Numbered from the stretch's first letter, positions 7,197 through 52,298 are shown. The stretch is 64,000 nt of DNA from Flavobacteriales bacterium (GCA_947491305.1 CANLIL010000001.1:30814-94813), one strand, 5' to 3'. The notes: generated by a model not told the origin, from the letters alone. Program-made: numbers and translations.

Positions 7197-7967
7197 TTAT
7201 TTGGTAATTTCTTTAATCCACTGATCTACTTTGTATGAAGGGCACGCTTTGTTTGAAAACTCATAGTGTCCGTGGTGAGTAGCAGCAGGAAGTTTGTCTT
7301 TAAACGCTTTGTAAATCAATTCTTGCGTTAGTCTTTGTTCTGGTGTTCGGTTGTCAAAAGATTTGATGTTTTTATCAATTCCACCAATATATGAAATATT
7401 AATAGAATCATAATTATGACCTGCTACTCCATTTGAAGGTAGGTTAAAGTCAACGGCATAAGTCCATTCCCCTTGTGGATTGATTATAATATGATAACCG
7501 GGTCTTGACCAACCTTTTGACTTTAAATGAAAATCAATTATTTGTTTTGTTGTTGCCGTTTGGTGCGAAGCTGTACAGTGCCAGATTATCTTTCTAATTT
7601 TTCTTTTGAAATCAAATCCATTAATCAATTTCACTAACTCCAAAGCTGAGGGAGAAGTTGGATACTTACCGTCAATTTTCGGGAACTTAGAAAAGTCAAT
7701 AACATCTTCATCTTCGAAATCTTCATCTTTACCACCTGTTGTTGCCGGGTTAATCATTACGATTTTACTCGATAACTTATCCCAAGTTCTTGATCCAACA
7801 ATACCATCGTCCAATAAACCATTTGCTCGTTGAAAAGCAATAACAGCCTTTTGAGTTACTTCACCAAAATTTTCAGTGATAGTAGGGTGAGTAAAAAAGC
7901 CTTTTTCTTTTAAAAGCTTTTGAAGTTCGGAAACATTTTTCCCTTTACTGCCTAATTTTAAAATCAT
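7197..7967 (-). CDS. endolysin: PG_binding_1-like domain plus N-acetylmuramoyl-L-alanine amidase (Amidase_2/PGRP)
   Basis: 'GSKGKNVSELQKLLKEKGF..DGIVGSRTWDKL' is a peptidoglycan-binding repeat. 'IIWHCTAS', 'GYHIII', 'SINISYIGG' and 'HYEFSNKACPS' are amidase_2 blocks. Confidence 0.8.
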   Translation of the reverse strand: MILKLGSKGKNVSELQKLLKEKGFFTHPTITENFGEVTQKAVIAFQRANGLLDDGIVGSRTWDKLSSKIVMINPATTGGKDEDFEDEDVIDFSKFPKIDGKYPTSPSALELVKLINGFDFKRKIRKIIWHCTASHQTATTKQIIDFHLKSKGWSRPGYHIIINPQGEWTYAVDFNLPSNGVAGHNYDSINISYIGGIDKNIKSFDNRTPEQRLTQELIYKAFKDKLPAATHHGHYEFSNKACPSYKVDQWIKEITK

Positions 7968-8101
7968 TTTTGTGAGTTTACTAAAACCTTAAAGTTAATT
8001 ATTGCCGTTAAGCCAAAAGTAATGATACCAACTATTACAAATATGGTATCAAGCTTTTCCTTGGTTGTTTTTTCTTTGAATTTTCTTTCTTGAACTATCA
8101 T
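7964..8101 (-). CDS. 45-aa single-pass membrane protein (holin-like candidate), below the ORF-track cutoff
   Basis: Hand translation gives MIVQERKFKEKTTKEKLDTIFVIVGIITFGLTAIINFKVLVNSQK. There are ATGA overlaps at both ends, with the GH19 gene upstream and the amidase gene downstream. Confidence 0.5.
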   Translation of the reverse strand: MIVQERKFKEKTTKEKLDTIFVIVGIITFGLTAIINFKVLVNSQK

Positions 8102-8853
8102 TTTACTGTTTTTTTGATTAAAAAATAAGCTCCTACTGACAAAGATACAACAAACGCACTAAACACCAATATCTTAACTAAATTATTGTTTGTTCCGTTT
8201 GATGGTTTAGCTTTTAATTTGGTTAAAATATTTTTCCACAATGCAAAATTCTTATTGATTTCAGATAAGCTTTTTGTTCCACCATTAACTGAAATTCTAG
8301 CAAGCCTTAAATCACCATCCCTAACAATATCAAAGGTTGATCTGCTTGTGCCATTTTTAGCATATTTACCGCCACGCTTTTTATTCATAAAGGTAGTGGC
8401 AATGTTAAACGAGTTTATTGGAACTAAGGCTAAATTAGCATTATTGATTAGGTTTATACCTAGCTTATCTCCGTAGTATTTATAATTGCTTTTACCAGTT
8501 AATTGAATAAGCCCACGACCGAAATAAGGTAATCCATTTTTATCAGTTCCTAAATTATAATAATTCGCTTTTCCGTTTGTGCTTCGGTAATAATCAAGCG
8601 CCCTTTGGCAAGGTTTACCAACATACGCTTTTCCTGTACTATTGCATAAATAGTCTGCCTCCCATCTTTGAAGCGAATAATCGCTTTCGGATTTAGCAGT
8701 AGCAAGCAAGTAAGCCAAATCAGAAATAGAATTAATTCCATCAGATTTTTGAGCGTAACGAAGCACCTGCTTAAGACTATCAGTGAATTGAGTAGATGCA
8801 CCGCTTTTTTTGTACAACTCAACTGCTTTATTTATATCAAAGTCTAATCCCAT
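8098..8853 (-). CDS. GH19 (chitinase-like) peptidoglycan hydrolase with C-terminal membrane anchor
   Basis: 'ATAKSESDYS' and 'GRGLIQLTGKSNYKYYG' match the GH19 lysozyme catalytic blocks. C-terminal TM 'ILVFSAFVVSLSVGAYFLI'. Confidence 0.7.
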   Translation of the reverse strand: MGLDFDINKAVELYKKSGASTQFTDSLKQVLRYAQKSDGINSISDLAYLLATAKSESDYSLQRWEADYLCNSTGKAYVGKPCQRALDYYRSTNGKANYYNLGTDKNGLPYFGRGLIQLTGKSNYKYYGDKLGINLINNANLALVPINSFNIATTFMNKKRGGKYAKNGTSRSTFDIVRDGDLRLARISVNGGTKSLSEINKNFALWKNILTKLKAKPSNGTNNNLVKILVFSAFVVSLSVGAYFLIKKTVK

Positions 8854-9806
8854 TTTCGTAAAATATAAATTAGTCCGGCAATAATACCTGATACAATTAG
8901 TGTAGGGTAAAGATTAAGTTTATTGTTTTTTGTAGGGTTGCTAAAGTTAGAATACTTATTTTCTAACACAATCCTTTTTTTAAGTTCTTCTTTTTCAATT
9001 TCATAGTTTTCAAGTTCTTTGTTACCCTCTAGTTCATTTTGAAGTTTTGAAATCATTATTGGATAAATCACAAATTTAATTGAAGTGTTTGCCTTGGCTA
9101 TAAATTGTAATCCAACATTTCCGTCAATCATATAATCATCGAAAAACTCAAGTGTAGAAGAAATATTTTGATATGGATCAATAGTTGGAACAAATGGGAA
9201 TTTTGTAACGTTACCATTAACATCTTTTTCAGTTCGTGTAAATGCTTCCAATAATTGATTTACATTACTGCTGTATATTTGAGTTTTACCAACAACGAAA
9301 GGCTCTGCTGTACTTTGTTGTAATATTTGAGAATAAGTTACTCCGGGAATAGAAGACGTTGGCTGAACCTCTCTTTTTGTATTGAAATTGTCAAAAAAAC
9401 TAGGGATTACTACCGTCCATTCTCCAATTCCACCAATAGGTAAAGCAGTATCTTTAAAAAGTTTCAATATTATATTCGGCGGATGTGAACTAGTTAGTAA
9501 TTCCCAAGCATCTACACCATTCCACACGATTAAATCTAAAGCAGTTGCGCCGTTTATTTTGAAGGATTTTTTTCCATTGATTTCAGCTAAAAACACTAGG
9601 TTATTTATGAAAGTATTTCCTACATACCATAAGATACCATCTAATAAAGTATTGTTGAGTTCTTGTAGTTGAGCGTTTGCATCAAATATTGTAACTAATT
9701 TGTCCTGTGGTGAATTATTTGAAACATTTATAATATAAGGGTTACTCAAATCCTTTTTTGAAGGATTAAGACCATTAATTTCATCTGATGTATCAAAATA
9801 ATTCAT
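8844..9806 (-). CDS. virion protein, paralog of the capsid candidate, with C-terminal membrane anchor
   Basis: About 95 aa align by eye at roughly 45% identity with the 26088..26816 product: 'AEPFVVGKTQIYSSNVNQLLEAFTRTEKDVNGNVTKFPFVPTIDPYQ..KFVIYP' versus 'QKPFVVGLTYLQSGSANQVLETLTLIAKDVNGNVNQKTLVPTVDPYQ..KIYFYP'. C-terminal TM 'LIVSGIIAGLIYIL'. Confidence 0.55.
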   Translation of the reverse strand: MNYFDTSDEINGLNPSKKDLSNPYIINVSNNSPQDKLVTIFDANAQLQELNNTLLDGILWYVGNTFINNLVFLAEINGKKSFKINGATALDLIVWNGVDAWELLTSSHPPNIILKLFKDTALPIGGIGEWTVVIPSFFDNFNTKREVQPTSSIPGVTYSQILQQSTAEPFVVGKTQIYSSNVNQLLEAFTRTEKDVNGNVTKFPFVPTIDPYQNISSTLEFFDDYMIDGNVGLQFIAKANTSIKFVIYPIMISKLQNELEGNKELENYEIEKEELKKRIVLENKYSNFSNPTKNNKLNLYPTLIVSGIIAGLIYILRKWD

Positions 9807-16797: not shown

Positions 16798-17295
16798 TTA
16801 ACCTAAAATGTATTTAAATGAATAACTTAAATCCAAAGGAACTCTAAAAAATAAAATTCCGCTTTTAACAACAAGGTTTCCATCTAATGTCAATAATGAA
16901 TTTTTACCGCCTAACAATAGATCAATACCAGTAGAAACCCAATTAATATCTTTCAATAAAATATCAATATCGAACGTGATATATGACTTTCCGTTTCTTT
17001 CAAGTGTTTGATTAATATTTGAATTGGAGATTACACCTACTTTATTGGAACGATTCAATAAAATGTCAAAGTTATATGATGCCAAAACAAACTGTAATTT
17101 ACTTGGATTATCAATTTCAACTGTTGCTCTAAGTTTAAGAATCTCTTTTGTTTTAGAGATAGTTTGAACACTTTTAACACTATAAGTGAAATTGTATAAA
17201 ATTTCAGATTGGTTTTTATAGTATCTTACAGTAGCTATTGCCCCTGCTGTAGCAGCAAGAGCAATACCTCCAAAAATCAAATATTTTTTTAACAT
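16798..17295 (-). CDS. N-terminally anchored protein, possible LEA_2/WHy-like beta-sandwich
   Basis: TM or signal 'IFGGIALAATAGAIA'. 'LRATVEIDNPSKLQFVLASYNFDILLNRSNKVGVISNS..GKSYITFDIDI' resembles the LEA-14/NDR1-type pattern (tentative). Confidence 0.35.
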   Translation of the reverse strand: MLKKYLIFGGIALAATAGAIATVRYYKNQSEILYNFTYSVKSVQTISKTKEILKLRATVEIDNPSKLQFVLASYNFDILLNRSNKVGVISNSNINQTLERNGKSYITFDIDILLKDINWVSTGIDLLLGGKNSLLTLDGNLVVKSGILFFRVPLDLSYSFKYILG

Positions 17296-17320: not shown

Positions 17321-18100
17321 TTATTTTGTGTAGTATTTTCTGTACGCCAAGAAACCTAGTGTAAGAACAGCAAGCCCAATACCAGTCCACAACATGTAGT
17401 TTGGTTTTTCTGAACCCTCGTTTGTGTCAGATCCAACTGTAGGTGTAACCATAGTTGAAGTTGATTCATCAACAGCATCAACAGCATCAGTAACCGGACT
17501 TTCTGGTAATGCACCAGCATTTAGATTTTTAGTTTCACCTTGTGTTTGACTAGCAATATAAGCGTCTTTAGCACCCTTACTTGCAAATTTCATACTAGCT
17601 AATTTTTTAAATAACCCAGTTGGTGCTTTTGGTAATTTAACATTACCTATTTCACCTAAACCCGGTTGTGCTTGTTGAGATAGATTTTGATTAACTGCTT
17701 GTGAGTCCGCTAAAGATTCTTGTTCTAATTGTTTTTTTCTAGCTTCTTCCCATAATCTTTTAGCTCTAGCTCCAGCATTTAATTTATTCGCTTTTTTAGC
17801 AGAAATCAAATCTTTTTTAAGCCTATCAACTTCGTTGTTTTTTCTCTTTTGGATTTCCAATAAAATTGTAGCCCTAGACTTTACTTTAGCCACTCCCGGT
17901 AAAGCACCAGAATTACGCAAATCTTGTTCGATTTGAGCCATTCTTGCTTCTTCCGCGTTAGTAAGTTCTTTTAGTCGCTTACCTGCTTTTATAGCAGCAA
18001 CACCTGCACCAATAAACCCATCAAACTCATTTTCGTCTGAACCACTGAACTCTAAAAAAGTATTTTCTCCTTCAAAGTTGTAAAATTTTTCGTTTTTCAT
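17321..18100 (-). CDS. tail-anchored membrane protein with N-terminal acidic-aromatic motif
   Basis: N-terminal 'FEGENTFLEFSGSDENEFDGFIG', a central helical K/R/E/A-rich region, and C-terminal TM 'WTGIGLAVLTLGFLAY'. Confidence 0.55.
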   Translation of the reverse strand: MKNEKFYNFEGENTFLEFSGSDENEFDGFIGAGVAAIKAGKRLKELTNAEEARMAQIEQDLRNSGALPGVAKVKSRATILLEIQKRKNNEVDRLKKDLISAKKANKLNAGARAKRLWEEARKKQLEQESLADSQAVNQNLSQQAQPGLGEIGNVKLPKAPTGLFKKLASMKFASKGAKDAYIASQTQGETKNLNAGALPESPVTDAVDAVDESTSTMVTPTVGSDTNEGSEKPNYMLWTGIGLAVLTLGFLAYRKYYTK

Positions 18101-18117
18101 TTTTGTATATGTTAAGT

Positions 18118-18657
18118 TTACTTTTTAGCAAATTTTTTGTAAGCAATAAAACCTATTGCTAGGACTGCAATTCCAACACCTCCCCAGATAGCATAAGGTT
18201 TCCAATTGAAAGCACCATCAACTGTATCTGTATCTGCTCCTTTAGTTGAAACACCACTAGTATCTTCTCCTCCACTAGTTGAACTAGTTGAAGTACTTCC
18301 TGTTGCTCCATCGCCTCCACCTGCACCAATTCCAGCTTTATCTCGAAATTCTTGCACTCTGTCTTTTACTTTTTCGATAGCATCCATGATACCGCCACCA
18401 CCAACTTTTTCTTTAGCTTGTTGACGCGCATCTTTACGAGAAACACCTTGAGCCATCAATTCTTTTTTAATTGCTCGTTTTTCTTTGGCTTTTTTACCAA
18501 TAAACTCATCAAATTCGCCCTCGTCTTCTGTACCAGAGAAACCAAGGTAATTTGATGTTTGTTCGTCAGTATCGTTGTCCCCATCGAAACCCACATAACC
18601 TGAACCTGCACTACCGCAACCACAAGCATTACTAAATTGTTCTTTTACTGAAATCAT
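18118..18657 (-). CDS. tail-anchored membrane protein with N-terminal acidic-aromatic motif (paralog of the 19490..20515 product)
   Basis: 'YVGFDGDNDTDEQTSNYLGFSGTEDEGEFDEFIGKKAKEKRAIKKELMAQGVSRKDARQQAKEKVGGGG', with C-terminal TM 'IWGGVGIAVLAIGFIAY'. Confidence 0.55.
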   Translation of the reverse strand: MISVKEQFSNACGCGSAGSGYVGFDGDNDTDEQTSNYLGFSGTEDEGEFDEFIGKKAKEKRAIKKELMAQGVSRKDARQQAKEKVGGGGIMDAIEKVKDRVQEFRDKAGIGAGGGDGATGSTSTSSTSGGEDTSGVSTKGADTDTVDGAFNWKPYAIWGGVGIAVLAIGFIAYKKFAKK

Positions 18658-18685
18658 TTTTTTTTAATTTAAACGTTACTACTAT

Positions 18686-18790
18686 TTATTCTTGACCTTT
18701 TTTCCATGCTCTTGACACTAGCCAAACTGTTCCAAATAATACAGCAATTCCTACTGCAATATTAATCAAATTAGTTTTATTATTTTCCAT
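18686..18790 (-). CDS. 34-aa single-pass membrane peptide (below the ORF-track cutoff)
   Basis: Hand translation gives MENNKTNLINIAVGIAVLFGTVWLVSRAWKKGQE, in the gap between two same-strand genes. Confidence 0.35.
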   Translation of the reverse strand: MENNKTNLINIAVGIAVLFGTVWLVSRAWKKGQE

Positions 18791-18819
18791 TTGTTTGATT
18801 TTTAACTAAATAAATGTTC

Positions 18820-19485
18820 TTATTTCGCTTTTAACATTAAGTAAGCAGCTCCAAGTATCACAGAACCAATGATTAAAGGTTTAAAAAATGCGTGTGAAGT
18901 TGGTGTACTTTTTGGTTTTGTATAAATAGGAATTTCTTGTTCTTTTGTTGCTTGTTCGTCGCTTGTTTCATCACCACCACCGCCACCACCGACAAATCGA
19001 GGGGTAGGGGATGTTGCGTTATTCAAAGCACCGCCAAGTAAACCGCTTCCAATCAAAATACCCTCAGTGAATGTAGGAGTAGAAGAAGAAGTTGTAGTTG
19101 TTCCTGTTGATGTTGGAGTCGGTGTTGGAGTCGGTGTTGGAGTCGGTGTTGTGCTTCCTGTTACCACACCATTTCCATATTTACCCTCTGTTTGGGAACT
19201 AATAGTTGAACCTGATGAAGGGCTTGCAACAATAACATTTCCAACAGGTAAAACAGGCGTGCTAATAATAGGCGTTGGATTTCCACCGGTAGTTACAATT
19301 CCTGTTGCCATTCCTGCATTTAAAGCTGAAGCAGGAGGGGTTGGAGGGGTTGGTGATGGAGGAACAATTATATTTAAACCATCTGTTTTAAGTTTACCGT
19401 CTACGCTAATAGCGTTATTGTACCTTTGTCTTTTGATGCTTATAAATTCATCAAACTCACCGTCAAAATCTAATTTCCTTCTCAT
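18820..19485 (-). CDS. tail-anchored membrane protein, Pro/Thr-rich, with N-terminal acidic-aromatic motif
   Basis: 'LDFDGEFDEFISIKRQR', the '(TP)n' linker 'TPTPTPTPTPTPTS', a 'GGGGGD' tract, and C-terminal TM 'LIIGSVILGAAYLML'. Confidence 0.55.
   Translation of the reverse strand: MRRKLDFDGEFDEFISIKRQRYNNAISVDGKLKTDGLNIIVPPSPTPPTPPASALNAGMATGIVTTGGNPTPIISTPVLPVGNVIVASPSSGSTISSQTEGKYGNGVVTGSTTPTPTPTPTPTPTSTGTTTTSSSTPTFTEGILIGSGLLGGALNNATSPTPRFVGGGGGGDETSDEQATKEQEIPIYTKPKSTPTSHAFFKPLIIGSVILGAAYLMLKAK
19111..19150. repeat. 12-nt tandem repeat (about 3.3 copies of tgttggagtcgg) encoding the (Thr-Pro)n linker
   Basis: Read directly from the sequence: tgttggagtcgg tgttggagtcgg tgttggagtcgg tgtt. 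Confidence 0.8.
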
Positions 19486-19489
19486 TTTG

Positions 19490-20515
19490 TTACTTTTTTC
19501 TTGTTATAAAATATGCACCTATACCTAGTAAAAGAGCAATAGGAACACCAATCATTAAAATTTTTCTAATGTTTCTTGTATCTGATTGCGATTCTGTTTT
19601 TTCAAACAATTCAATAGAAGCTTTCTTTTCTTCTGCTGTAAGGTCAGGATTATTCAAGATTGCTTTTTTAGGATCTCCCTCAGCTTGAAGTCTTTTTTCT
19701 GCCGCTTCAATTTGAGCTTTTTGATTAGCTGTTAATGTTGCTAATTCTTTGTCTGCCATTCTTTCGGCTGCTTCAATTTCTGCTTTTTTACCTTTGTTAA
19801 TTTGGGCGTTATTTATGGTTGATCCCATAACACCAACGGCAGTTCCAGCTAAGCCTATTAGTGCAACTGTAGTTGTCGGCTCAAAATTGTTGAAGTCGCT
19901 ATAAATAGTTCCTTCTTTACCCAAAAAACCTGTAAATGAACTTGTTTTTGCTTCTTCTGCAGCTTTCAATTTACAGTTTTTACCACAGAAAAAAGGTTTT
20001 TTGTTTTCAGCCTTTTCAGCAGCTTTTATAAGCTCATCATAATCACCACCTAAATTATTTTCCCATTTAGACTTTAATGCTTTTTTACCATCAGGCTGAC
20101 CTTTATCAATAGCCATTATTTTAGTGGCAAATCCCTTAAAGTTTAATAATAACAAAGATAAAAACGCACCGCGTACAGGGGCAAAAGCAACCTTAAGAAT
20201 GCCTTTACCTATTTTACCACGACCAACTTGTTCCAAGGCTTGTTTACGTGCTTCTTTGTTAGATAAACCAGTTTTTTTGAGTTCTTTTTTTACTTTTCTT
20301 CGCTCCTTGGCTTTTTTACCAACAAACTCACTGAACTCATTATCTGAATCAATATCAAAAACAGAAGCTATTTTAATTTCAGGTTCTATGTTTTCTTCTT
20401 CTTCTTCTTCATCTATTTCGTCAGATACATTTCCAAAGAAAATAGCACTATTCTCAAAACCTAAATCTCTATTTAGATCGAGTAATTCTTTTTCGTTTTC
20501 AAATTCTTGTTCCAT
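19490..20515 (-). CDS. tail-anchored membrane protein with acidic-aromatic motif
   Basis: 'FDIDSDNEFSEFVGKKAKERRKVKKELKKTGLSNKEARKQALEQVGRGK' parallels the 18118..18657 product. C-terminal TM 'ILMIGVPIALLLGIGAYFI'. Confidence 0.55.
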   Translation of the reverse strand: MEQEFENEKELLDLNRDLGFENSAIFFGNVSDEIDEEEEEENIEPEIKIASVFDIDSDNEFSEFVGKKAKERRKVKKELKKTGLSNKEARKQALEQVGRGKIGKGILKVAFAPVRGAFLSLLLLNFKGFATKIMAIDKGQPDGKKALKSKWENNLGGDYDELIKAAEKAENKKPFFCGKNCKLKAAEEAKTSSFTGFLGKEGTIYSDFNNFEPTTTVALIGLAGTAVGVMGSTINNAQINKGKKAEIEAAERMADKELATLTANQKAQIEAAEKRLQAEGDPKKAILNNPDLTAEEKKASIELFEKTESQSDTRNIRKILMIGVPIALLLGIGAYFITRKK

Positions 20516-20530: not shown

Positions 20531-21028
20531 TTATTTACTCGCTTTTTGTCCTTTAATAAATTCTGCCTCATAAGAAGCTTTACTTGGGGATTTTTTCAAT
20601 GCTTCTGGTAATTGTTTATTATAAAAACCTGCTGCATAAGCCCACTTCAATCGTGCATTATTTCTTGTTATTGAATTTGCACTAGGATAAGAAGCAAAAA
20701 TCAAACGAGCTGCTGCATCCGAATCTCGACCGAATTTACCATCGGCATCAATAGGAAATTTAACATTAACTCCATTTGGCGCTTTTTTTCTCAACCCACT
20801 CCATCCTCTCCATTGAGCGATTTCATTAATAATTACTTGAACAGCTGTTGCCCCTTCGCCTTCGCTACCTTTTTCTACCTTTTCAGAAAGAATATCTCCG
20901 GGTTTGCTTTCGTCGTTTTCTTTTGGCTTGCTTGTTTTCTTGTAATCCTTGAACATAATAAACCCAATACCTCCTGCTAAGGCTACAAATCCTGAAATGA
21001 TTAAAGCTATTTTTTGTCCTGTTGTCAT
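20531..21028 (-). CDS. N-terminally anchored protein with peptidoglycan-binding-like C-terminal domain (paralog A)
   Basis: TM 'IALIISGFVALAGGIGFIMF'. 'GEGATAVQVIINEIAQWRGWSG..KFPIDADGKFGRDSDAAARLIF' fits the PG_binding-like pattern (G..V..(L/I)Q..LN..DG.FG..(S/T)..A). It is a clear paralog of the 21057..21632 product. Confidence 0.5.
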   Translation of the reverse strand: MTTGQKIALIISGFVALAGGIGFIMFKDYKKTSKPKENDESKPGDILSEKVEKGSEGEGATAVQVIINEIAQWRGWSGLRKKAPNGVNVKFPIDADGKFGRDSDAAARLIFASYPSANSITRNNARLKWAYAAGFYNKQLPEALKKSPSKASYEAEFIKGQKASK

Positions 21029-21056: not shown

Positions 21057-21632
21057 TTATTTACTCGCTTTACCCCCTCTAATGAACTCGTTTGTGTAAT
21101 CTGCTCTACGAGAAACATTTTTCAATCCATCAGGGAAAGGTTTTTTATAAAATCCTGCTGCATACGCCCACTTCATACGAGCTTTATGTCTTGTTATGTT
21201 TAAATCTGCTTGATAATTGTCAAAAATCAAACGAGCGGCAGTATCAGAGTTTGTTCCAAAATCACCATCAGTACTAATAGGGAATTTAACAGATTTGCCG
21301 TTTGCCGCTTTTTTGTTTTGACCACTCCATCCTCTCCATCTTGCAATTTCATTGATTATTACTTGTACACCTTTGGCTGCATCACCTTTACTACCTTTCT
21401 TTACAACCTCGTCTGCTATGTCAGAACTTGAAGGTTTTGTAGTTTCTGTTTCTGTTTCTGTTTGAGAATTACTAGATGAATTATTTGAAACTTGTGATAC
21501 CACAGGCAACAAATCCTCTTCAATAATTTCTTCATCTTTTTTGGCACGGTTTCTAAAAACCAAGAATCCAACACCACCAACTAAAGTTACTACTCCAGCA
21601 ACTATTAAAGCTATTTTTTGTCCTTTTGTCAT
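21057..21632 (-). CDS. N-terminally anchored protein with peptidoglycan-binding-like C-terminal domain (paralog B)
   Basis: TM 'IALIVAGVVTLVGGVGFLVF', 'TETETET' linker, 'KGDAAKGVQVIINEIARWRGWSG..KFPISTDGDFGTNSDTAARLIF', and the shared 'ARMKWAYAAGFY'. Confidence 0.5.
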   Translation of the reverse strand: MTKGQKIALIVAGVVTLVGGVGFLVFRNRAKKDEEIIEEDLLPVVSQVSNNSSSNSQTETETETTKPSSSDIADEVVKKGSKGDAAKGVQVIINEIARWRGWSGQNKKAANGKSVKFPISTDGDFGTNSDTAARLIFDNYQADLNITRHKARMKWAYAAGFYKKPFPDGLKNVSRRADYTNEFIRGGKASK

Positions 21633-22159: not shown

Positions 22160-22612
22160 TTAAATTTTAGTAATTATAAATTCAACACGTCTGTTTGTTG
22201 CTCTTCCTTCTTCTGTTGAATTATCTGCTATCGGCTCGGTCATTCCTTTACCTAGTGCCGTAATTCTTTCAGGAGCAACATTTTTAGAAATCAAATACTT
22301 CATAACCTCATTGGCTCTCCCTTCGCTTAGTTTTTGATTTGCACTCGCAGAACCTTTATTATCAGTGTGACCAATAATTTGAATCGAATATTGAGGATTA
22401 TCTGTAAGCGCCACCGCTAATTCATCAAGGAAAGGAAAAGAAACAGGTTTAATGTCTGCTTTACCAAACTCAAACAATAAATTATCGTAAGCGTCCTTAA
22501 TAGTTTCGGTAATAGTTTTCTTTTTAAAAAACTTATAATATAGTAATATAGCTCCTGTAATGGTTACAAGGCTAATACCTGCTACTATTGCTATTTTGGT
22601 TGTTTTATTCAT
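22160..22612 (-). CDS. N-terminally anchored OmpA-C-like peptidoglycan-binding protein
   Basis: TM 'IAIVAGISLVTITGAILLY'. 'IQIIGHTDNKGSASANQKLSEGRANEVMKYLISKNVAPERITALGKGMTEPIADNSTEEGRATNRRVEFII' is a textbook OmpA/MotB C-terminal domain pattern. Confidence 0.8.
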   Translation of the reverse strand: MNKTTKIAIVAGISLVTITGAILLYYKFFKKKTITETIKDAYDNLLFEFGKADIKPVSFPFLDELAVALTDNPQYSIQIIGHTDNKGSASANQKLSEGRANEVMKYLISKNVAPERITALGKGMTEPIADNSTEEGRATNRRVEFIITKI

Positions 22613-23061
22613 TATCTTAAACCTAAATTTTTCATTCTTTTTATTACATTCTTATAACACCAATCAAAATTACACTGCGACTTTTTAGCGTCCTCGTGTT
22701 CAAGTTCTTGAATAAGCGTTCTTCCTTCTTCTTTATAGCCTTTTGTGTTATAATAATTATTCAACTTAATAAGCTTATCATCACTTAAAAGCATAAATAA
22801 ATCACGAACCTCTGGATAAGCGTCGTCAAAAACCCCCCAACCTTGAATCATTGTTCTTAAATAATCGGCATCAGCCTTTGGGTTGTATTTTGCAGCATCA
22901 TCCTCTGTTCCTGAATTTGGTGAAGTAGTAGTCCCACTTTCTTCAAAACCTCTATTCAAAACTTTTTTCTTTGCTGCCGAACGTACAAATAAATAGACAA
23001 CTACTCCTGCTACAATAACAGAAGAACCAATAATCAAAGTATTTCTAATTGCTTTTTCCAT
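22612..23061 (-). CDS. N-terminally anchored protein, possible annexin-like repeat
   Basis: TM 'LIIGSSVIVAGVVVYLFV'. 'GWGVFDDAYPEVRDLFMLLSDDKLIKLNNYYNTKGYKEEGRTLIQELEHE' loosely fits an annexin-type repeat (tentative). Confidence 0.3.
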   Translation of the reverse strand: MEKAIRNTLIIGSSVIVAGVVVYLFVRSAAKKKVLNRGFEESGTTTSPNSGTEDDAAKYNPKADADYLRTMIQGWGVFDDAYPEVRDLFMLLSDDKLIKLNNYYNTKGYKEEGRTLIQELEHEDAKKSQCNFDWCYKNVIKRMKNLGLR

Positions 23062-23063
23062 GA

Positions 23064-23531
23064 TTAAAAGTTTTTCATTTTATCCAATGCTTCGTTTAAA
23101 TCAGACCAGTTATCATTTTCCAAAAAGCTTTCTAAATAAGATTGTAAATCTCTTTGGTACAATTGATAAAATCTGAAAGCAACATAACTAACATTTATTT
23201 TAGTTCCTGCTGATTTTATAGCCCCAACGGCTTCTTCTTCGTCGTCGTTATAAAAACTCTTTGCGTTATAAATATTATATGCCAACTGGTTAGCCTTTGT
23301 TTGACTAATAGTAACCTTTGATTTATTTTCTGAATAAGGCAAAGAAGATAAATATTGTTCTCTTCTAAATTCGTCAATGGCTCTGTCTGCTTCACGATCT
23401 TCTTTAGAATCTGTTAAGCCTACTGCATTGAATATCGGCTTAATAATACCAAAGTAAGCCAATGTAAGCGCAGCAACTCCCACAACACCAATTGCTATCC
23501 ATTTAACTGTTTCACTATTATCGTTTGGCAT
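23064..23531 (-). CDS. N-terminally anchored protein, possible annexin-like repeat
   Basis: TM 'WIAIGVVGVAALTLAYFGII'. 'NDDEEEAVGAIKSAGTKINVSYVAFRFYQLYQRDLQSYLESFL' fits DE..(L/I)(I/V).(I/L)...(S/T)......(I/V)...(F/Y)...Y...L...L (tentative). Confidence 0.3.
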   Translation of the reverse strand: MPNDNSETVKWIAIGVVGVAALTLAYFGIIKPIFNAVGLTDSKEDREADRAIDEFRREQYLSSLPYSENKSKVTISQTKANQLAYNIYNAKSFYNDDEEEAVGAIKSAGTKINVSYVAFRFYQLYQRDLQSYLESFLENDNWSDLNEALDKMKNF

Positions 23532-24297
23532 AGTCGTAGTTTTTAATAAATTTATCTAAGGTTTTGAACCTATTTAGCGTTTCAGGATTAGTTGATGCAC
23601 TTTGAAAAACATTCAGAAAAACGTTGTAAGCGTCGATTCTTGGATAGCCCAAAGCGAGGTATATTCTGAGACCGTTTATGTCTGCCTGAATTTCTGACTC
23701 AGGATTTTTATTTACGTAAAAATGACAAAACTCATGACACAAAATAGCCATTCGCATAGGAATACTCATATCCTTAAAATGGAATTTAGAAACCTCAATC
23801 CTTCCATTATCCTTACTTATTCTAGCAGGTGTAGGAAGCGGATTACCTATTTCATTTCGAATAACATCAAAATAATCAATTCTAAATTGCAGGTCGTCAC
23901 TTTTATATATGTCGCCTTTTTTTGAACAAGATAAAACGCCTGCACGCTCACAAAATTCTTGAGCAAATTTTATAAAACTTTCTGTTTTATCATTGAACCT
24001 AATTTTTTCACGATGTAGTGGTAAAACTTGTGTTTCTAATACTTTAAAAGTAGAGCCATCCTCTCCTTTTCCTTGCATATTATCATTGTTATAAACCAAC
24101 AAAAACCCTAACTCTGGTGCTTGTGGCATTCTAATGTAGAAATCTTGTCTCCCATCAATATTAGTGTATCTCTTAGTGTAAAATGTATGATTTTGATCAG
24201 CATCAGTAAATTTAATCCATAGCTTTTCTGGTTGATTGGTTTCAATCACAACTTTAAGCGTACACGGCTTTCCTCCTAATCGTTTTTCAATCAACAT
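23518..24297 (-). CDS. HExxH zinc metallopeptidase-like protein
   Basis: 'MAILCHEFCHFYVN' (HExxH). No TM segment. It is embedded in the membrane-protein cluster. Confidence 0.5.
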   Translation of the reverse strand: MLIEKRLGGKPCTLKVVIETNQPEKLWIKFTDADQNHTFYTKRYTNIDGRQDFYIRMPQAPELGFLLVYNNDNMQGKGEDGSTFKVLETQVLPLHREKIRFNDKTESFIKFAQEFCERAGVLSCSKKGDIYKSDDLQFRIDYFDVIRNEIGNPLPTPARISKDNGRIEVSKFHFKDMSIPMRMAILCHEFCHFYVNKNPESEIQADINGLRIYLALGYPRIDAYNVFLNVFQSASTNPETLNRFKTLDKFIKNYDYAKR

Positions 24298-24796: not shown

Positions 24797-25453
24797 TTAC
24801 TTATTTCTTTTTGCGTAAAAATAAATTCCAGCACCAAGAATACCCACAACAGCAACACCAATTAAGATGTTACGTGTATAGGTACGTCTTCTAGCCTCTT
24901 CTTCTCTTCTTCTAGCCTCTTCCTCTTGTCGTTGCATTTCTTGTTGAAAACCAATCGTGCTTTGATTGAGTATTTGACTAGAAGCATTTCTATTTCCAAT
25001 ACCACTCAGTAAGTTACCAGCAATTCCAAGGATGTCTTCTTTATTATTTCTAAAGAAATCACCTGCCTTAGAACTTGTTGTACCATCAGGATTTTTTGTC
25101 TTACCAAATAAACGTTTTAAGAAACCAATCTTTTCGCCTGAGTCTGCTGATTTTTTCTTTTTATTAAAGAAATTTTGATAAGTTTCTTTGTTTGCAAAAA
25201 TCAAAATACTAAGGTTCTTTAGCAACTCTTTTGATTTCTCGGTGTTTTTACGTAAAACCTGAACAATAGCGTTAGATAACAACTCATTGTCTGCGTCTGT
25301 GGGAAAAGGAATATTACTTTGGCGAAACGCCTCAATAACAGCCTCTTTATCTTCACGGATTAAACTTCCAAGAGCTACGATAACATCATTGCTTTTGCCT
25401 GCGGTATTAGCTGTATTAAAGTTGCTCCAAATATCTGCTTTTTGGTATATCAT
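24797..25453 (-). CDS. tail-anchored membrane protein
   Basis: 'EEEARRREEEARRR' (encoded by a 20-nt tandem duplication at about 24888-24927), then C-terminal TM 'ILIGVAVVGILGAGIYFY'. Confidence 0.5.
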   Translation of the reverse strand: MIYQKADIWSNFNTANTAGKSNDVIVALGSLIREDKEAVIEAFRQSNIPFPTDADNELLSNAIVQVLRKNTEKSKELLKNLSILIFANKETYQNFFNKKKKSADSGEKIGFLKRLFGKTKNPDGTTSSKAGDFFRNNKEDILGIAGNLLSGIGNRNASSQILNQSTIGFQQEMQRQEEEARRREEEARRRTYTRNILIGVAVVGILGAGIYFYAKRNK

Positions 25454-31618: not shown

Positions 31619-34600
31619 TTACATTTTACCGAATTGTTGCTCGAAAATTTCTTGGTCTGATACAGAACCTCCTTTATCATACTTTTTTGAATCAAGTTCT
31701 CTAAGTAACGCCAAAACCTCATTGAATCGAGTAAGTTTAGATTCTCTTTCTCTTCTTAAGGCTTTTGCTTCATCTGAATCGTCACCTTCATTGTAAGTGC
31801 TTAAACGGCTACTATTTAAATCTCTTTGAAGCTTGTTAAGTTCTTTTAGTAGATTGGATTCAAGTAAGCTTGCTTTTCTAGCCTCAGTCTTATTCATAAA
31901 ACCTTTTTCCGGGTCTTCTTCTTTAATAATACCTGCTGATAATTTAGCGTGATTTACAGCATCCTCTTCCGAAACAAAAACTATAACTGTATCTTCTTTC
32001 CATCTTGGGGAACTTGAAACTACTTCCCATCTGTCAGTTTGCGTTGTAGAAGGTTGAACTTTGTAAGTAATATTAAGCTTTTCGTCTTTGAAAGTTTGAG
32101 TTTTGGTAGTTGGTGATTGCTCAACATCTTTCTTTTTACCCAAAACTTTCAAGCTAATTTCCAAGGCTTTGATACGCTTTTCAACCATAGCTTTATCTTT
32201 CGAGAAACGAAGCGAAATTTTAAGAGCTTTCAATCGTTTTTCAGTAAAGTCAACTTTGTTTATTGGTTTAGCGGTTTCAATTACCTTTTCCACTTTAGGC
32301 AGAACGTTTGTTCCCAATCCTGCGTAACTTCTATTTTCTGGTAACTGCATTCCACCGCGCTCTTCAATCAATTGTTTGATACCATCAACTTTGATGTAAC
32401 CGTCAACCTCTTTCTTAAGCATTTGGAAAGCTTCATCGCCTGTACCATAGAAATCCTCAATTACACTAATAGGAACGTAACGACCAAACTCACCGTTTTT
32501 AGCGTTATTGTCTTGGTAACGTTTCAATGCGCGTTTGATTGAGTCTTCTTTTGGAATATCCATAAACACAAGGAATACTTTATATCCTAATTTTTTCAAT
32601 CTCTTGATTAAAGGACGGTATTTCTTAACGTTACTCATTGTTCCATCGTACAACAAATCGTGCTTACAAGGTGTGTCGTAGCGATCTAAAAGCATATTCA
32701 CAACGTCTTTAGCTTCTTCATGCGTAGCAGGTGCATTCCATCCCTTATACTCTGGGAGCATTGAACGAACCTCGTCAGCGTCAATTTTCCAAATTTTATC
32801 ACTTTGCAAGTAAGGAGCATTGTTTTTTAAGAAAGTAGATTTACCACTTCCCGGTGCGCCACCCATAATAATTGCAATAGGTTCAATTTGGTCGGTACAC
32901 AAAGCATTTCCAACAAGTTTGTCGATTATTTCTTTGTGAAGTTTTTTTCTTTCTTCCGTGTATTCATAAACAACAGTTCCGTCTTCTGTTTTGATTTCTT
33001 TGCTGTTTAAGTATTTCGTTTGTGGTTGAGATTTAACACACTCGTCCAATAGCATTAATCCTTCTGAATCAATTCTAACAATTCCATTAGGATCAACAGG
33101 AGGGCACATTAAAACTTTTGGCTCAATTACTTTTGGTAAAGTAACATCGTCTAACAAGTAGTTCATTCGAGCGAAGTCCTTCACTAATTCATCAACAGAT
33201 TTTTCTTTGATTTGAAGCTTTTCTCTTTTTTCAAGAACTTCCATTACCTTTCTGTCTTTGGCTTCTTCACTAGTTAAAGAAGTTTGGCGTTTTTCAAGGT
33301 CTTCTATTTCAAATTTAACCTTTCCGATATAATCAGCAACATCCTTTTCTGGAACACGTCTTGGATCTAAGAAATCACGTTTGAAACGATCTGTATTTCT
33401 AACAGACATATTGAAATCGTCAAACCAATAAGGCTTGTAAACGCTACTATACGGGGACTGAATCATATCTTTAGGAACTGAATCATAAGACCCTTGCTTA
33501 ACATATCTTTTATCTTCATCAAGTTTTGTTCTCCAAAATTCTTGAATTGCGGAGATTTGTTCTTTTATAGGTTTATCTACGTATTTTTTTCTTACGTCTT
33601 TCAACAATTCTTTTAAATCGTCTTTTCGATACTCAATAGTTTTAATTTGCTCAATAAATCGCTCTAGTTTTTCAACATCCGCTTTTTTATCCGTAATATC
33701 CTCAGCAATTGTTTCAATATCCTCCATTAATTCCATTTCTGCAATAACGCGAGGGTTTTTAATCAATGAATACTTTAAATCTTTTGGATTAAACTCTTCT
33801 GTTTTAAGGATGTTTGTTTGACCATCAGTATCAAAAATACTATTGATACGAGAAGTTTTTTCTTCTAATTTCTGGAACATAAAAATATCAGCACTGTCAA
33901 TCATTAATGGATTAACAATACGTACATTTTTAAACGCATTTCCTTGGCGGTAAATTCTACCTTCCAATTGTTGAATATCCGTTGGGTTGAATGAAAGGAA
34001 ACAGTTGAATAACGTACTAGAATAAGCTTGCAGGTTGATACCTTCGCGAATAGTAGCACTACCAATTAATACCTTACATCTTTCTTCATCAGAAATTGGT
34101 TCTAATTCGAGTGTTTTTTTATTGAATTTTTTACCAAGGAATAAGTTTTTTACATATTCTTTTGCGTCTTCGTCACTTACACCCTTTTCGATAGGCAATT
34201 TAATTTCAGAACTGATAATTCCAACTTCATGAGGTTTAAAACCTAAATTTTCAATTAAGTATTCACGGATTAAACCAAAGAACTTAACACCTCTTTCGCT
34301 GTAAATAACAACTCCAGACATTGGTGTTTTTGTTTTTTCGTGGTGTTCTTTAATGGATCTTATGCTCTCTACTACAAAAGTAAGTTTTCCAGATGTTTCA
34401 ATAAATTGTTTCGCTGTAGGTCTTAGTAAACCTTGACCACAATCAAATAAATATGGACTGAAAGCAACATTTCTTGAATGGTTTAGAGCTAATAATAAAC
34501 GAACGCCTTTTTTCTCGTTTTCGTCCATTGCTCCTTCGTCGATTTCAACAGATTCCTCCGATTTTATTTCTTCTTCGTCTTCACCACCATTACTAGAGTT

Positions 34601-51973: not shown

Positions 51974-52298
51974 TGAAAAATATTTAGAAAGAATTGAGTT
52001 TTTCAAACAAAAACAAAAAGAACTTAATGAACTTAAATCAAAATTAAGAGAATCCTACATTCAAGCAAATCGACCTTGTAACATAGGAGACACCGTCAAA
52101 ATTATTTCTTTTGGAGGTAAAGAATATATTGGAGAGGTTGTTTCTTTCTCTTTATTTGATACTGATGTCTTTATAGACTGCATTAAGTCCGGAAATAATA
52201 AAGCATATCAAACTAAACCTCAAAAAAGCGTTGAGGTAATTTCCAAGGCAACAACAATTCAAGAAAATAAACAAGAGGTAGAGGATGTCGAAAATTAA
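51966..52298 (+). CDS. hypothetical protein
   Basis: 110-aa ORF overlapping both neighbours. Confidence 0.5.
   Translation: MTSEKYLERIEFFKQKQKELNELKSKLRESYIQANRPCNIGDTVKIISFGGKEYIGEVVSFSLFDTDVFIDCIKSGNNKAYQTKPQKSVEVISKATTIQENKQEVEDVEN

What the first reader, a model, noticed from the sequence alone, without database searches (positions are those of the whole stretch)
17321..20515. Recurrent N-terminal acidic-aromatic motif 'F(D/S/E)G..(E/D)(E/N)EF(D/S)(E/G)F(I/V)G' on tail-anchored membrane proteins and on the capsid candidate
Four consecutive gene products carry the motif near the N-terminus and end in a single C-terminal TM helix. They are 'FEGENTFLEFSGSDENEFDGFIG' (nt 18008-18076), 'FDGDNDTDEQTSNYLGFSGTEDEGEFDEFIGKKAKEKR' (18475-18597), 'LDFDGEFDEFISIKRQR' (19423-19473) and 'FDIDSDNEFSEFVGKKAKERR' (20297-20359). 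The capsid candidate starts with a related double copy, 'FFHFDGNEDDFNFADDYSSFDGDNDF' (26688-26765). The regions between motif and anchor are otherwise dissimilar (PT-rich, Ala/Lys-helical or Gly-rich), so the motif itself seems to be the conserved unit. It could be a sorting or incorporation signal, a capsid-membrane tether, a scaffold-binding peptide or a protease-removed propeptide. I do not recognise it as a described signal.
Basis: seen in the sequence. Interest (0 to 1): 0.8.

Follow-up and report, generated by a model that had tools for sequence, protein, structure and literature searches.

The report
Conserved N-terminal module, tail-anchored phage proteins
Four neighbouring membrane proteins of an uncultured, apparently tailless phage share a conserved acidic-aromatic-then-basic N-terminal module. 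It recurs on the same kind of protein across a whole clade of related viruses and probably helps couple the viral membrane to the capsid, although its function has not been tested.

Summary
The motif is real and sits at the stated coordinates. A profile built from it scores 14.8-22 bits on exactly the four named proteins in the window, against at most 2.9 bits on reversed sequences. It finds 62 hits in 3,251 ORFs of related loci and none in reversed controls.

It is more than a short peptide. It is the core of a module of about 50 residues: a disordered acidic/aromatic tract with [FY][DNSE]G units, then [FY]-D-N-F-Φ, then a strongly basic helix, a turn, and a second helix (G-x-S-x-K-E-A-R-x-x-A). 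In the first 60-hit set every carrier has a C-terminal hydrophobic anchor. Each genome has 1-4 carriers, lying next to each other.

P1, P2 and P4 are paralogues. P3 shares only the core.

The capsid candidate shares the composition and the FDG units, but not the core.

The module is present in the clade whose capsid-candidate N-arm is highly acidic (14 of 15 loci). It is absent from 39 loci of a sister clade with a weakly acidic arm.

No Pfam, PHROG, NCBIfam, PDB or isolate match exists.

The best reading is a capsid-facing electrostatic/aromatic coupling or recruitment module. This is inferred, at about 40% confidence. A propeptide, a DNA-binding module and a lipid-binding module remain open.

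The parts
17321..18100 (-). P1, a 259-aa tail-anchored protein. The module core lies at residues 9-36 (nt 17993-18076): NFEG, EFSG, then ENEFDGFIG. Here the basic stretch is replaced by an Ala/Lys helix.
   Evidence: HMM score 14.8 bits. Paralogue of P2 at both ends.
18118..18657 (-). P2, a 179-aa tail-anchored protein. The full module spans residues 24-97 (nt 18367-18588): GFDG...GFSG...GEFDEFIGKKAKEKRAIKKELMAQGVSRKDARQQAKEKV. A CGC motif sits at residues 12-14.
   Evidence: HMM score 22 bits. 58% identical to the P4 module over 52 aa. Orthologues.
18686..18790 (-). A 34-aa single-TM ORF (MENNKTNLINIAVGIAVLFGTVWLVSRAWKKGQE) lying between P3 and P2. It carries no motif.
   Evidence: Translation of the gap, and called 34-aa genes (33-34 of 34 residues identical across the four) in L149, L151, L152 and L154.
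18820..19485 (-). P3, a 221-aa tail-anchored protein. Only the core is present, at residues 5-22 (nt 19420-19473): LDFDGEFDEFISIKRQR. It is followed by a hypervariable Pro/Thr/Gly-rich linker.
   Evidence: HMM score 17.2 bits. In orthologues the N-terminal 27 aa are 67% identical, against 37% for the linker.
19490..20515 (-). P4, a 341-aa protein. It has an N-terminal helix, an acidic linker, the module at residues 53-109 (nt 20189-20359), a conserved central domain (R115, N125, W151, GG156-157, KKPxFCGxxCK) and a C-terminal TM.
   Evidence: HMM score 19 bits. The AF2 model places helix 60-81 and helix 86-97 at pLDDT about 73, within an otherwise poor model.
25151..25189 (-). A sub-threshold motif-like stretch, NKETYQNFFNKKKKS, inside the tail-anchored protein 24797-25453.
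   Evidence: 6.8 bits, the fifth best score in the window and above every reversed control. Orthologues in L001, L013 and L051 score 9.6-16.4 bits.
26088..26816 (-). The capsid-protein candidate (242 aa). Residues 1-54 form the N-arm (nt 26655-26816): a conserved helix at residues 3-19, then a disordered acidic/aromatic tract with HFDG and SFDG. Residues 58-202 form a beta-sandwich.
   Evidence: More than 1,600 homologues, all unannotated. The arm is conserved across them. AF2 model with pLDDT 69. Only weak, generic jelly-roll matches.
27164..27973 (-). P-loop ATPase next to the capsid candidate, a putative genome-packaging ATPase.
   Evidence: Weak Zot, HerA and AAA_22 Pfam hits. phrog_2666 terminase at 5.6e-6. 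BLASTP E=1e-4 against the packaging ATPase of Thermus phage P23-77, covering Walker A and B.
23518..24297 (-). An HExxH protein (259 aa) inside the membrane-protein block. It is the only candidate protease for a propeptide model.
   Evidence: HEFCH motif in the sequence. Syntenic homologous-looking proteins in both clades, with HEYSH visible in the L001 copy. Only a sub-threshold SprT-like hit. No isolate match.

Best explanation
What is shown:
- The 'motif' is the core of an undescribed N-terminal module of about 50 residues. Its parts, in order, are: (i) a disordered acidic/aromatic tract carrying 0-3 [FY][DNSE]G units; (ii) the core [FY]-D-N-F-[LFI]; (iii) a strongly basic helix; (iv) a turn; and (v) a second helix of the form G-x-S-x-K-E/D-A-R-x-x-A.
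- The module sits on 1-4 adjacent tail-anchored membrane proteins per genome, in one clade of a very large, uncultured lineage of apparently tailless phages rich in membrane proteins.
- It spread partly by tandem gene duplication and by internal duplication of the module.
- It is under purifying selection, while the linkers between the module and the anchor evolve freely.

What is inferred:
- These proteins have no signal peptide, and their N-terminal regions are highly charged. The module therefore most likely stays on the cytoplasmic face of the membrane. That is the face that meets the cytoplasmic capsid proteins, whether the membrane ends up inside or outside the shell.
- There the basic hairpin (mean net charge +7.5 over 20 residues) and the aromatic core would engage the conserved acidic/aromatic N-terminal arm of the capsid candidate (13 D/E and 11 aromatics in 54 residues), and possibly anionic lipid head groups as well.
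- This would recruit this set of membrane proteins into the particle and fasten the shell to the membrane through many weak electrostatic/aromatic contacts.
- The module's own acidic/FDG tract resembles the capsid arm. It could pair with the basic hairpins of neighbouring copies, or mask its own hairpin until assembly.
For: - Specificity: 62 HMM hits in 3,251 ORFs of the window plus 148 related loci, and none in reversed sequences. The first round gave 60 hits against none in reversed and none in shuffled sets.
- Architecture: in that 60-hit set all carriers have a C-terminal hydrophobic anchor, 50 by threshold and 10 by inspection, against 23% of all ORFs. Of 16 new hits (17 listed; P0128 seen earlier) from 1.84 billion representative proteins, 14 have the anchor and the other two look truncated.
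- Charge dipole around the core: mean net charge -4.5 upstream and +7.5 downstream, each over 20 aa.
- Helical hairpin in the P4 model.
- Selection: the P3 module is 67% identical among orthologues, against 37% for its linker.
- Portability:
  - Tandem double modules occur in the L154 P2 orthologue and in P0147, P0151 and P0154.
  - Six N-terminally anchored proteins in relatives carry an acidic-aromatic tract (FDG-type in four) at the opposite, C-terminal, membrane-distal end. One is L001 16318-17103, ending ...FSDFDGDDMEFGLDVD.
- Co-occurrence: 14 of 15 loci whose capsid-candidate arm has 13-24 D/E have at least one module protein. None of 39 loci whose arm has 1-10 D/E has one.
- Shared [FY][DNSE]G enrichment in the tail-anchored tracts and the capsid arms.
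- Context:
  - The genes lie between the ATPase and capsid candidate on one side and beta-helix fibre-like proteins on the other.
  - In PRD1, phage membrane proteins are first recruited to a patch of host membrane onto which capsid proteins then assemble (PMC6356626).
  - In NO16 and PM2, minor capsid proteins with a predicted TM helix lie beneath the capsomers (PMC13552765).
Against: - There is no direct evidence of any interaction, of presence in virions, or of membrane topology.
- Charge counts around the anchors do not settle orientation. The tail after the TM carries about +3.
- The co-occurrence with an acidic capsid arm reduces to essentially one split between two clades, so it is a single evolutionary event and not a statistical association.
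- The capsid candidate does not contain the core motif.
- Its identity as the major capsid protein is itself unproven. Foldseek found only weak, generic beta-sandwich matches. There is no profile similarity to the P23-77 capsid proteins VP16 and VP17.
- P1 lacks the basic stretch.
- The P4 model is of low confidence overall (pLDDT 49.5).
Confidence: 0.4

Rival explanations
1. Membrane-surface module. The basic helical hairpin with its aromatic cap binds anionic phospholipids and shapes or stabilises the viral membrane. The acidic tracts might act through Ca2+ bridges. No specific partner in the shell is needed.
For: - Strongly basic helix that begins with an F-x-x-F-Φ hydrophobic cap.
- Membrane-anchored annexin repeats, which are Ca2+/phospholipid binders, are encoded in the same block of the relative L001 (PF00191, E=3.3e-7 and 1.3e-5).
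- P23-77 VP11 is a basic minor capsid protein reported to use lipid-protein interactions (reference title cited in PMC6356626).
Against: - The helix is only weakly amphipathic (mean hydrophobic moment 0.34) and is mostly charged.
- This model does not explain the conserved acidic/FDG tract shared with the capsid candidate.
- It does not explain why the module is absent from the sister clade, which has the same membrane-protein block.
Confidence: 0.2
2. Genome-tethering or DNA-condensing module. The basic helix-turn-helix binds DNA, in the manner of SAP/HeH motifs or adenovirus core proteins, and anchors it to the membrane. The acidic tract neutralises the basic part until packaging.
For: - Net charge of +7.5 over 20 residues, and a two-helix hairpin with a G-x-S-x-K-E-A-R pattern loosely reminiscent of HeH/SAP motifs.
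- Acid-then-base precursors are known for adenovirus pVII and pre-mu (own knowledge).
Against: - No Pfam, NCBIfam or PDB match to any DNA-binding domain.
- A tail-anchored protein with no signal peptide should keep its N-terminus on the cytoplasmic, capsid-facing side and not in the DNA-filled lumen (inference).
Confidence: 0.15
3. Propeptide or cleavage signal. The acidic/aromatic tracts of the tail-anchored proteins and of the capsid candidate are removed by the conserved HExxH protein during maturation.
For: - An HExxH protein is conserved inside the block.
- The capsid arm ends in a conserved ...FDMATG-(G-rich)-APTSQPY junction just before the folded domain.
- Targeting peptides that are later cleaved are known, for example the T4 capsid targeting sequence (own knowledge).
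Against: - The HExxH protein is equally conserved in the sister clade, which lacks the module.
- It has no significant similarity to any protease family; SprT-like reaches only E=0.097.
- In the tail-anchored proteins the core runs straight into a conserved helix with no recognisable junction.
Confidence: 0.1
4. Simple paralogy, with a non-structural role. The proteins are tandem duplicates whose ends are conserved by descent. They would act in lysis, superinfection exclusion or host takeover and not in the particle.
For: - P1, P2 and P4 are demonstrable paralogues.
- Tandem and internal duplications are common.
- Endolysin-type genes lie within 10 kb: Amidase_2 at 7197-7967 and a GH19 domain at 8098-8853.
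Against: - P3 shares only the core, and the N-anchored proteins carry the acidic tract at the other terminus, which points to a portable unit.
- Synteny places the genes between the capsid candidate and fibre-like genes in every relative examined.
- The module is more conserved than the linkers.
Confidence: 0.1
5. Chance low-complexity similarity among acidic N-termini.
For: The regions are compositionally biased, and the resemblance of the capsid candidate is largely compositional.
Against: No hits in reversed or shuffled controls, against 60-62 real hits. Positions are conserved in orthologues.
Confidence: 0.01

Closest known systems
Membrane-anchored minor capsid proteins of internal-membrane phages: PM2 P3, NO16 GP18 (PMC13552765) and PRD1 P16 (own knowledge)
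   Same: They are small virion proteins with one predicted TM helix and an extended soluble part. That part lies under the capsomers and complements the charge of pockets in the major capsid protein. The genes sit in the structural block near the capsid-protein and ATPase genes.
   Different: There is no sequence similarity. The known proteins are single-copy with individual sequences and do not share a module across several proteins. None has an acidic/aromatic tract followed by a basic hairpin. Genomes here are 50-130 kb, against 10-15 kb.
Thermus phage P23-77 VP11, a basic minor capsid protein that aids assembly through lipid-protein interactions (reference cited in PMC6356626)
   Same: It is a strongly basic protein placed between shell and membrane in a virus with small beta-barrel capsid proteins and a related type of packaging ATPase.
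   Different: VP11 has no TM anchor, no acidic/aromatic tract and no sequence similarity (sequence read).
Terminal targeting peptides: the T4 capsid targeting sequence of internal proteins, and encapsulin cargo-loading peptides (own knowledge)
   Same: They are short conserved terminal peptides shared by otherwise unrelated proteins encoded near the shell gene. They direct those proteins into the particle.
   Different: Those systems use HK97-fold shells and soluble cargo. The T4 peptide is cleaved by the prohead protease at (L/I)xE. Here the carriers are membrane proteins, the unit is larger, and cleavage is unknown.
Acidic-tract aromatic linear motifs: FFAT (EFFDAxE, binds the VAP MSP beta-sandwich) and the SSB C-terminal tip (DFDDDIPF) (own knowledge)
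   Same: They have two aromatic residues embedded in an acidic tract within a disordered region. They dock onto basic grooves that contain hydrophobic pockets.
   Different: The core sequence and spacing differ (F-D-N-F-Φ, immediately followed by a basic helix). The biological context is different, and no receptor has been identified.
Adenovirus core-protein precursors pVII and pre-mu (own knowledge)
   Same: An acidic segment precedes a highly basic segment in a virion protein.
   Different: Those are soluble DNA-condensing proteins processed by a cysteine protease. Here the proteins are membrane-anchored and no processing is known.

Membership tests
Any curated protein family (Pfam-A, PHROGs, NCBIfam, PDB sequences) | A significant profile match to the module or to the carrier proteins | tested here: not met
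   P1-P4 have no hit above any curated cut-off. The best were EssA at 18.5 bits (cut-off 24.1) and a holin at 14.3 bits. The module profile found nothing in PDB at E<=10.
Tail-anchored membrane protein (an architecture class) | A single hydrophobic segment within about 35 residues of the C-terminus and no N-terminal signal peptide | tested here: met
   All 60 motif proteins of the first set meet this, 50 by hydropathy threshold and 10 by inspection. P4 has extra hydrophobic segments. Actual insertion and topology cannot be tested here.
FFAT motif | Core E-F-F-D-A-x-E with adjacent phenylalanines, an acidic flank, and a VAP/MSP receptor | tested here: not met
   The core here is [FY]-D-N-F-[LFI] with the aromatics three residues apart, followed by K/R. 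No MSP-domain protein turned up among the window proteins scanned against Pfam.
SSB-type C-terminal acidic tip | The extreme C-terminus ends in D-D-D-I/L-P-F | tested here: not met
   The module is N-terminal. The C-terminal variants end ...DFDGDDMEFGLDVD or ...FLDFDGEF, without the IPF ending.
T4-type capsid targeting sequence | An N-terminal peptide of about 10 residues ending in an (L/I)xE cleavage site, together with a T4-type prohead protease and an HK97-fold shell | tested here: not met
   No prohead protease, portal or HK97-type capsid protein was found among the window proteins scanned. Cleavage itself cannot be tested here.
HeH / SAP / LEM DNA-binding motif | A profile match to the helix-extended-helix families | tested here: not met
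   No Pfam hit at E<=0.1 for P2 or P4. Only a visual resemblance in the G-x-S-x-K-E-A-R helix.
Helvetiavirae (single jelly-roll capsid proteins, e.g. P23-77) | Capsid proteins homologous to VP16/VP17 together with an FtsK/HerA-type packaging ATPase | tested here: inconclusive
   The ATPase resembles the P23-77 ATPase (BLASTP E=1e-4 over 163 aa). The capsid-candidate profile shows no similarity to VP16 or VP17. The model is a beta-sandwich with only weak jelly-roll matches. A second paralogue exists at 8844-9806.
Eukaryote-type N-terminal dual acylation signal (MGCxC) | Gly at position 2 for N-myristoylation, followed by Cys | tested here: not met
   Most P2-type N-termini read MCGC, MCNC or MSCGC, without Gly2. 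The peptidoglycan-directed genes point to a bacterial host.

The most novel reading that the evidence does not exclude
The module is a virus-encoded sorting and fastening code. An acidic-aromatic tract paired with a basic hairpin, shared between a set of tail-anchored membrane proteins and the N-arm of the shell protein, would select which membrane proteins enter the particle and zip the shell to the bilayer. This would operate in a previously undescribed, globally abundant lineage of 50-130 kb tailless, membrane-containing phages built from a new small capsid protein.
Probability: 0.25. Interest if true: 0.8.

Novelty: new variant of a known kind. Interest (0 to 1): 0.6.

Why it matters
How phage-encoded membrane proteins are selected into a virus-specific membrane patch, and how the shell then grips that membrane, is poorly understood even for PRD1 and PM2.

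A short, portable and conserved module shared by several anchors of one virus would provide a defined sequence handle. It could be tested by peptide binding, reporter fusions and co-folding.

The carriers also belong to a very large, unannotated virus lineage found in marine and freshwater samples. The capsid-candidate family has more than 1,600 protein clusters, and contigs reach about 130 kb. No cultured member or solved structure exists. Any functional assignment in its structural block therefore helps to annotate thousands of metagenomic sequences.

Tried and rejected
- Near-identity DNA search, and protein searches with the capsid candidate, the ATPase and the HExxH protein, against 50,697 phage records: no match.
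- Capsid-candidate search of IMG/VR with a single sequence: nothing. It succeeded only with alignments.
- Full-length P4 search of the 5.8-billion-protein set: only 11 orthologues, because low-complexity words swamped the candidate list.
- Module-profile search of the same set:
  - The second returned nothing at E<=0.001, because a 50-column profile cannot reach significance in so large a library.
- phmmer search of P2 residues 21-100 against 1.84 billion representative proteins: only 17 significant hits.
- PDB sequence searches with the ATPase, the capsid profile and the module profile: nothing meaningful.
- Foldseek with the capsid model: only generic beta-sandwich or jelly-roll matches, with TM-scores of 0.3 or lower.
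- AF2 model of P4: too poor (pLDDT 49.5) for a fold search. Only the local helices were used.
- The idea that the capsid candidate carries the same motif was rejected on a local-shuffle test.
- Positive-inside charge counts did not resolve topology.
- Six literature searches found no description of the lineage or the motif.

Full report
**Context.** The window is a 31-37% GC stretch in which nearly all genes lie on the minus strand.
- Its gene content is phage-like. It includes DNA methylases (one with an intein), a helicase and an exonuclease. It also has large 'polyvalent' proteins with ART-PolyVal, SNF2 and Zeta-toxin domains, an Amidase_2/PG_binding_1 endolysin, a GH19 domain and an OmpA-type domain.
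- No portal, HK97-type capsid protein, tail protein or large terminase was found among about 50 proteins scanned.
- Instead, a P-loop ATPase (27164-27973) sits next to a small, extremely widespread protein (26088-26816). These are followed by about 9 kb of small membrane proteins and then beta-helix, fibre-like proteins.
- The ATPase aligns with the packaging ATPase of the membrane-containing Thermus phage P23-77 across Walker A and B (E=1e-4 for the pair).
- The 242-aa protein has more than 1,600 homologous clusters in marine and freshwater metagenomes, all unannotated. It has no isolate match and no PDB relative.
- Its AF2 model (pLDDT 69) shows an N-terminal helix, a disordered acidic stretch and a beta-sandwich. 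That sandwich matches viral jelly rolls only weakly.
- I therefore treat 'capsid candidate' and 'membrane-containing, tailless phage' as reasonable but unproven.

**The observation.**
- EF[DS][EG]F[IV][GS]-type cores occur in four neighbouring ORFs and nowhere else in that form.
- A profile built from the window and related loci scores the four proteins at 14.8-22 bits. The next best window protein reaches 6.8 bits, and reversed sequences reach at most 2.9 bits.
- No DNA repeat underlies the motif.

**Recurrence in relatives.** I fetched relatives in four ways:
- with the ATPase (L001);
- with an alignment of capsid-candidate homologues, giving 80 metagenome loci and 5 MAG contigs;
- with a more divergent alignment, giving 62 IMG/VR loci;
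- by exact look-up of P4 orthologues.

The motif profile finds 60 hits in 1,092 ORFs, with none in reversed or shuffled copies. On the full set it finds 62 hits in 3,251 ORFs, again with none in reversed copies.

The broad consensus is an acidic run, then [FY]-D-N-F-[LFI], then [TGSN]-[KR]-[KR]-x-[KR]-x-[KR]-[KR]. This usually continues as ...(K/R)-K-E-L-x-x-x-G-(L/M)-S-x-K-(E/D)-A-R-x-Q-A-x-E. The window's EFDEFIGKKAKEKR is a local variant of FDNFLTKKxRERR.

Net charge switches from -4.5 over the 20 residues before the core to +7.5 over the 20 residues after it.

The P4 model is poor overall. It does place the core at the start of a helix (residues 60-81), followed by a turn and a second helix (residues 86-97), at pLDDT about 73. 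The acidic part is disordered.

**Architecture.** Every one of the first 60 carriers has a C-terminal hydrophobic segment followed by K/R, against 23% of all ORFs.
- There are 1-4 carriers per genome, and they lie next to each other.
- Of 16 new hits (17 listed; P0128 was already known) from a scan of 1.84 billion representative proteins, 14 have the anchor and two look truncated.

**Paralogy against a portable unit.** Within the window:
- P1 and P2 are homologous at both ends.
- P2 and P4 share 52 residues at 58% identity.
- P3 shares only the core.

The unit nevertheless behaves as a module:
- The P3 core is 67% identical among orthologues, while its Pro/Thr/Gly linker is 37% identical and varies in length.
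- Some proteins carry two tandem copies (L154 P2 orthologue, P0147, P0151, P0154).
- In six relatives a protein with an N-terminal anchor carries an acidic-aromatic tract (FDG-type in four) at its C-terminal end. In each case the tract lies at the end farthest from the membrane.

**The capsid candidate.** Its first roughly 55 residues are conserved across the family. The consensus is M-D-L-R-x-Y-F-x-Q-A-Q-D-E-A-N-x-N-F-F-N-Y-D-G...F-D-G-D-D...F-D-M-A-x-G...A-P-T-S-Q-P-Y.
- It does not contain the F-D-N-F-Φ-basic core.
- Against a matrix of acidic tract plus core, it scores no better than shuffles of its own arm (z=0.56, p=0.26 for the window).
- It does share the [FY][DNSE]G unit, which is about 3.5-fold enriched over local shuffles in both sets.

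**Co-occurrence.**
- Loci whose capsid arm has 13-24 acidic residues have module proteins in 14 of 15 cases.
- Thirty-nine loci of a sister clade have arms with 1-10 acidic residues and the same syntenic block, including the HExxH protein. None of them has a module protein.
- This fits a functional link between an acidic arm and basic hairpins. However, it amounts to one phylogenetic split.

**Mechanism.**
- Shown: a conserved, anchor-distal module with a charge dipole and an aromatic core, specific to tail-anchored proteins of one clade.
- Inferred: the module stays on the cytoplasmic face, because there is no signal peptide and the N-termini are highly charged. It therefore shares a compartment with the shell protein. 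In PRD1, phage membrane proteins gather in a host-membrane patch on which capsid proteins assemble (PMC6356626). In NO16 and PM2, TM-bearing minor proteins lie under the capsomers with complementary charges (PMC13552765).
- Proposal: the module is a coupling and recruitment device. Its basic hairpin and aromatic cap would bind the acidic/aromatic arm of the shell protein and perhaps lipid head groups. I hold this at about 0.4.
- The alternatives are lipid binding alone, DNA tethering, a cleaved propeptide, and a non-structural role. They are listed with their tests. Chance is excluded.

**Novelty.** Nothing in Pfam, PHROGs, NCBIfam, PDB, 50,697 phage genomes or six literature searches describes the module or the lineage.
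- Membrane-anchored capsid-linking proteins and terminal targeting peptides are known kinds.
- A shared module across several anchors, echoed in the shell protein's arm, is a new variant.
- Interest is moderate to high, limited by the lack of any functional evidence.

Noticed in passing
window 8844-9806 (-): A 320-aa protein with a C-terminal TM anchor is a paralogue of the capsid candidate: 36% identity over 129 aa, E=1.4e-21. It lacks the acidic arm. It could be a second shell or vertex protein tied to the membrane.
   Followed up: partly
window 18686-18790 (-): An unlisted 34-aa single-TM ORF (MENNKTNLINIAVGIAVLFGTVWLVSRAWKKGQE) lies in the gap between P3 and P2. It is almost identical to the called 34-aa genes in four relatives (L149, L151, L152, L154; 33-34 of 34 residues).
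   Followed up: yes
window 18616-18624 (-), P2 residues 12-14; L001 18407-18967 and many loci: In most clade-A genomes one module protein (the P2 orthologue) begins M(S)C[GNS]C[SN][SN]F[DS]G. This holds for 19 of 62 module proteins, against 39 of 3,251 ORFs overall. Similar N-termini occur in the sister clade (L092, L146). The conserved CxC at the membrane-distal tip is unexplained; it might bind a metal, form a disulfide or be acylated.
   Followed up: partly
L001 15013-15432, 15908-16312 and 14510-15010: N-terminally anchored proteins in the same block of a relative carry annexin repeats (PF00191, E=3.3e-7 and 1.3e-5, both above the curated cut-off). The positional counterparts in the window (22612-23061, 23064-23531) did not reach significance.
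   Followed up: partly
whole window; L149; L084: The virus lineage itself looks undescribed. The capsid-candidate family has more than 1,600 clusters in marine and freshwater data. Contigs run from 50 kb to 127-132 kb. There is no cultured member, and no tailed-phage hallmark was found among about 50 proteins scanned. One 132-kb contig is binned as a Sediminibacterium MAG.
   Followed up: partly
window 52285-54555 (+): A C-5 cytosine DNA methylase is interrupted by an intein (Hint/Intein_splicing plus a LAGLIDADG domain).
   Followed up: no
window 31619-37177 (-) and 39889-43665 (-): Two giant 'polyvalent' proteins are present. One carries an SNF2 helicase and a Zeta toxin domain. The other carries ART-PolyVal, LPD3, DUF5824 and a ParB-like domain. 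Both are typical of proteins delivered with the DNA to counter host defence. A separate N6 methylase lies at 38252-39652.
   Followed up: no
window 20531-21028 (-) and 21057-21632 (-): This is a tandem pair of N-anchored paralogues: 51% protein identity, and the only DNA-level repeat in the window (73% over 290 nt).
   Followed up: no
window 24797-25453 (-), residues 89-101: A fifth tail-anchored protein has a degenerate copy of the core (ETYQNFFNKKKK, 6.8 bits). Its orthologues in L001, L013 and L051 score 9.6-16.4 bits, so this family carries the core internally and not at the N-terminus.
   Followed up: partly
window 16798-17295 (-): An N-anchored protein directly after P1 gives a sub-threshold LEA_2 match (E=8.8e-4, 20.1 bits against a cut-off of 25.4). 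Positionally equivalent N-anchored proteins follow the block in both clades, and one (L153) also gives a weak LEA_2 hit.
   Followed up: no
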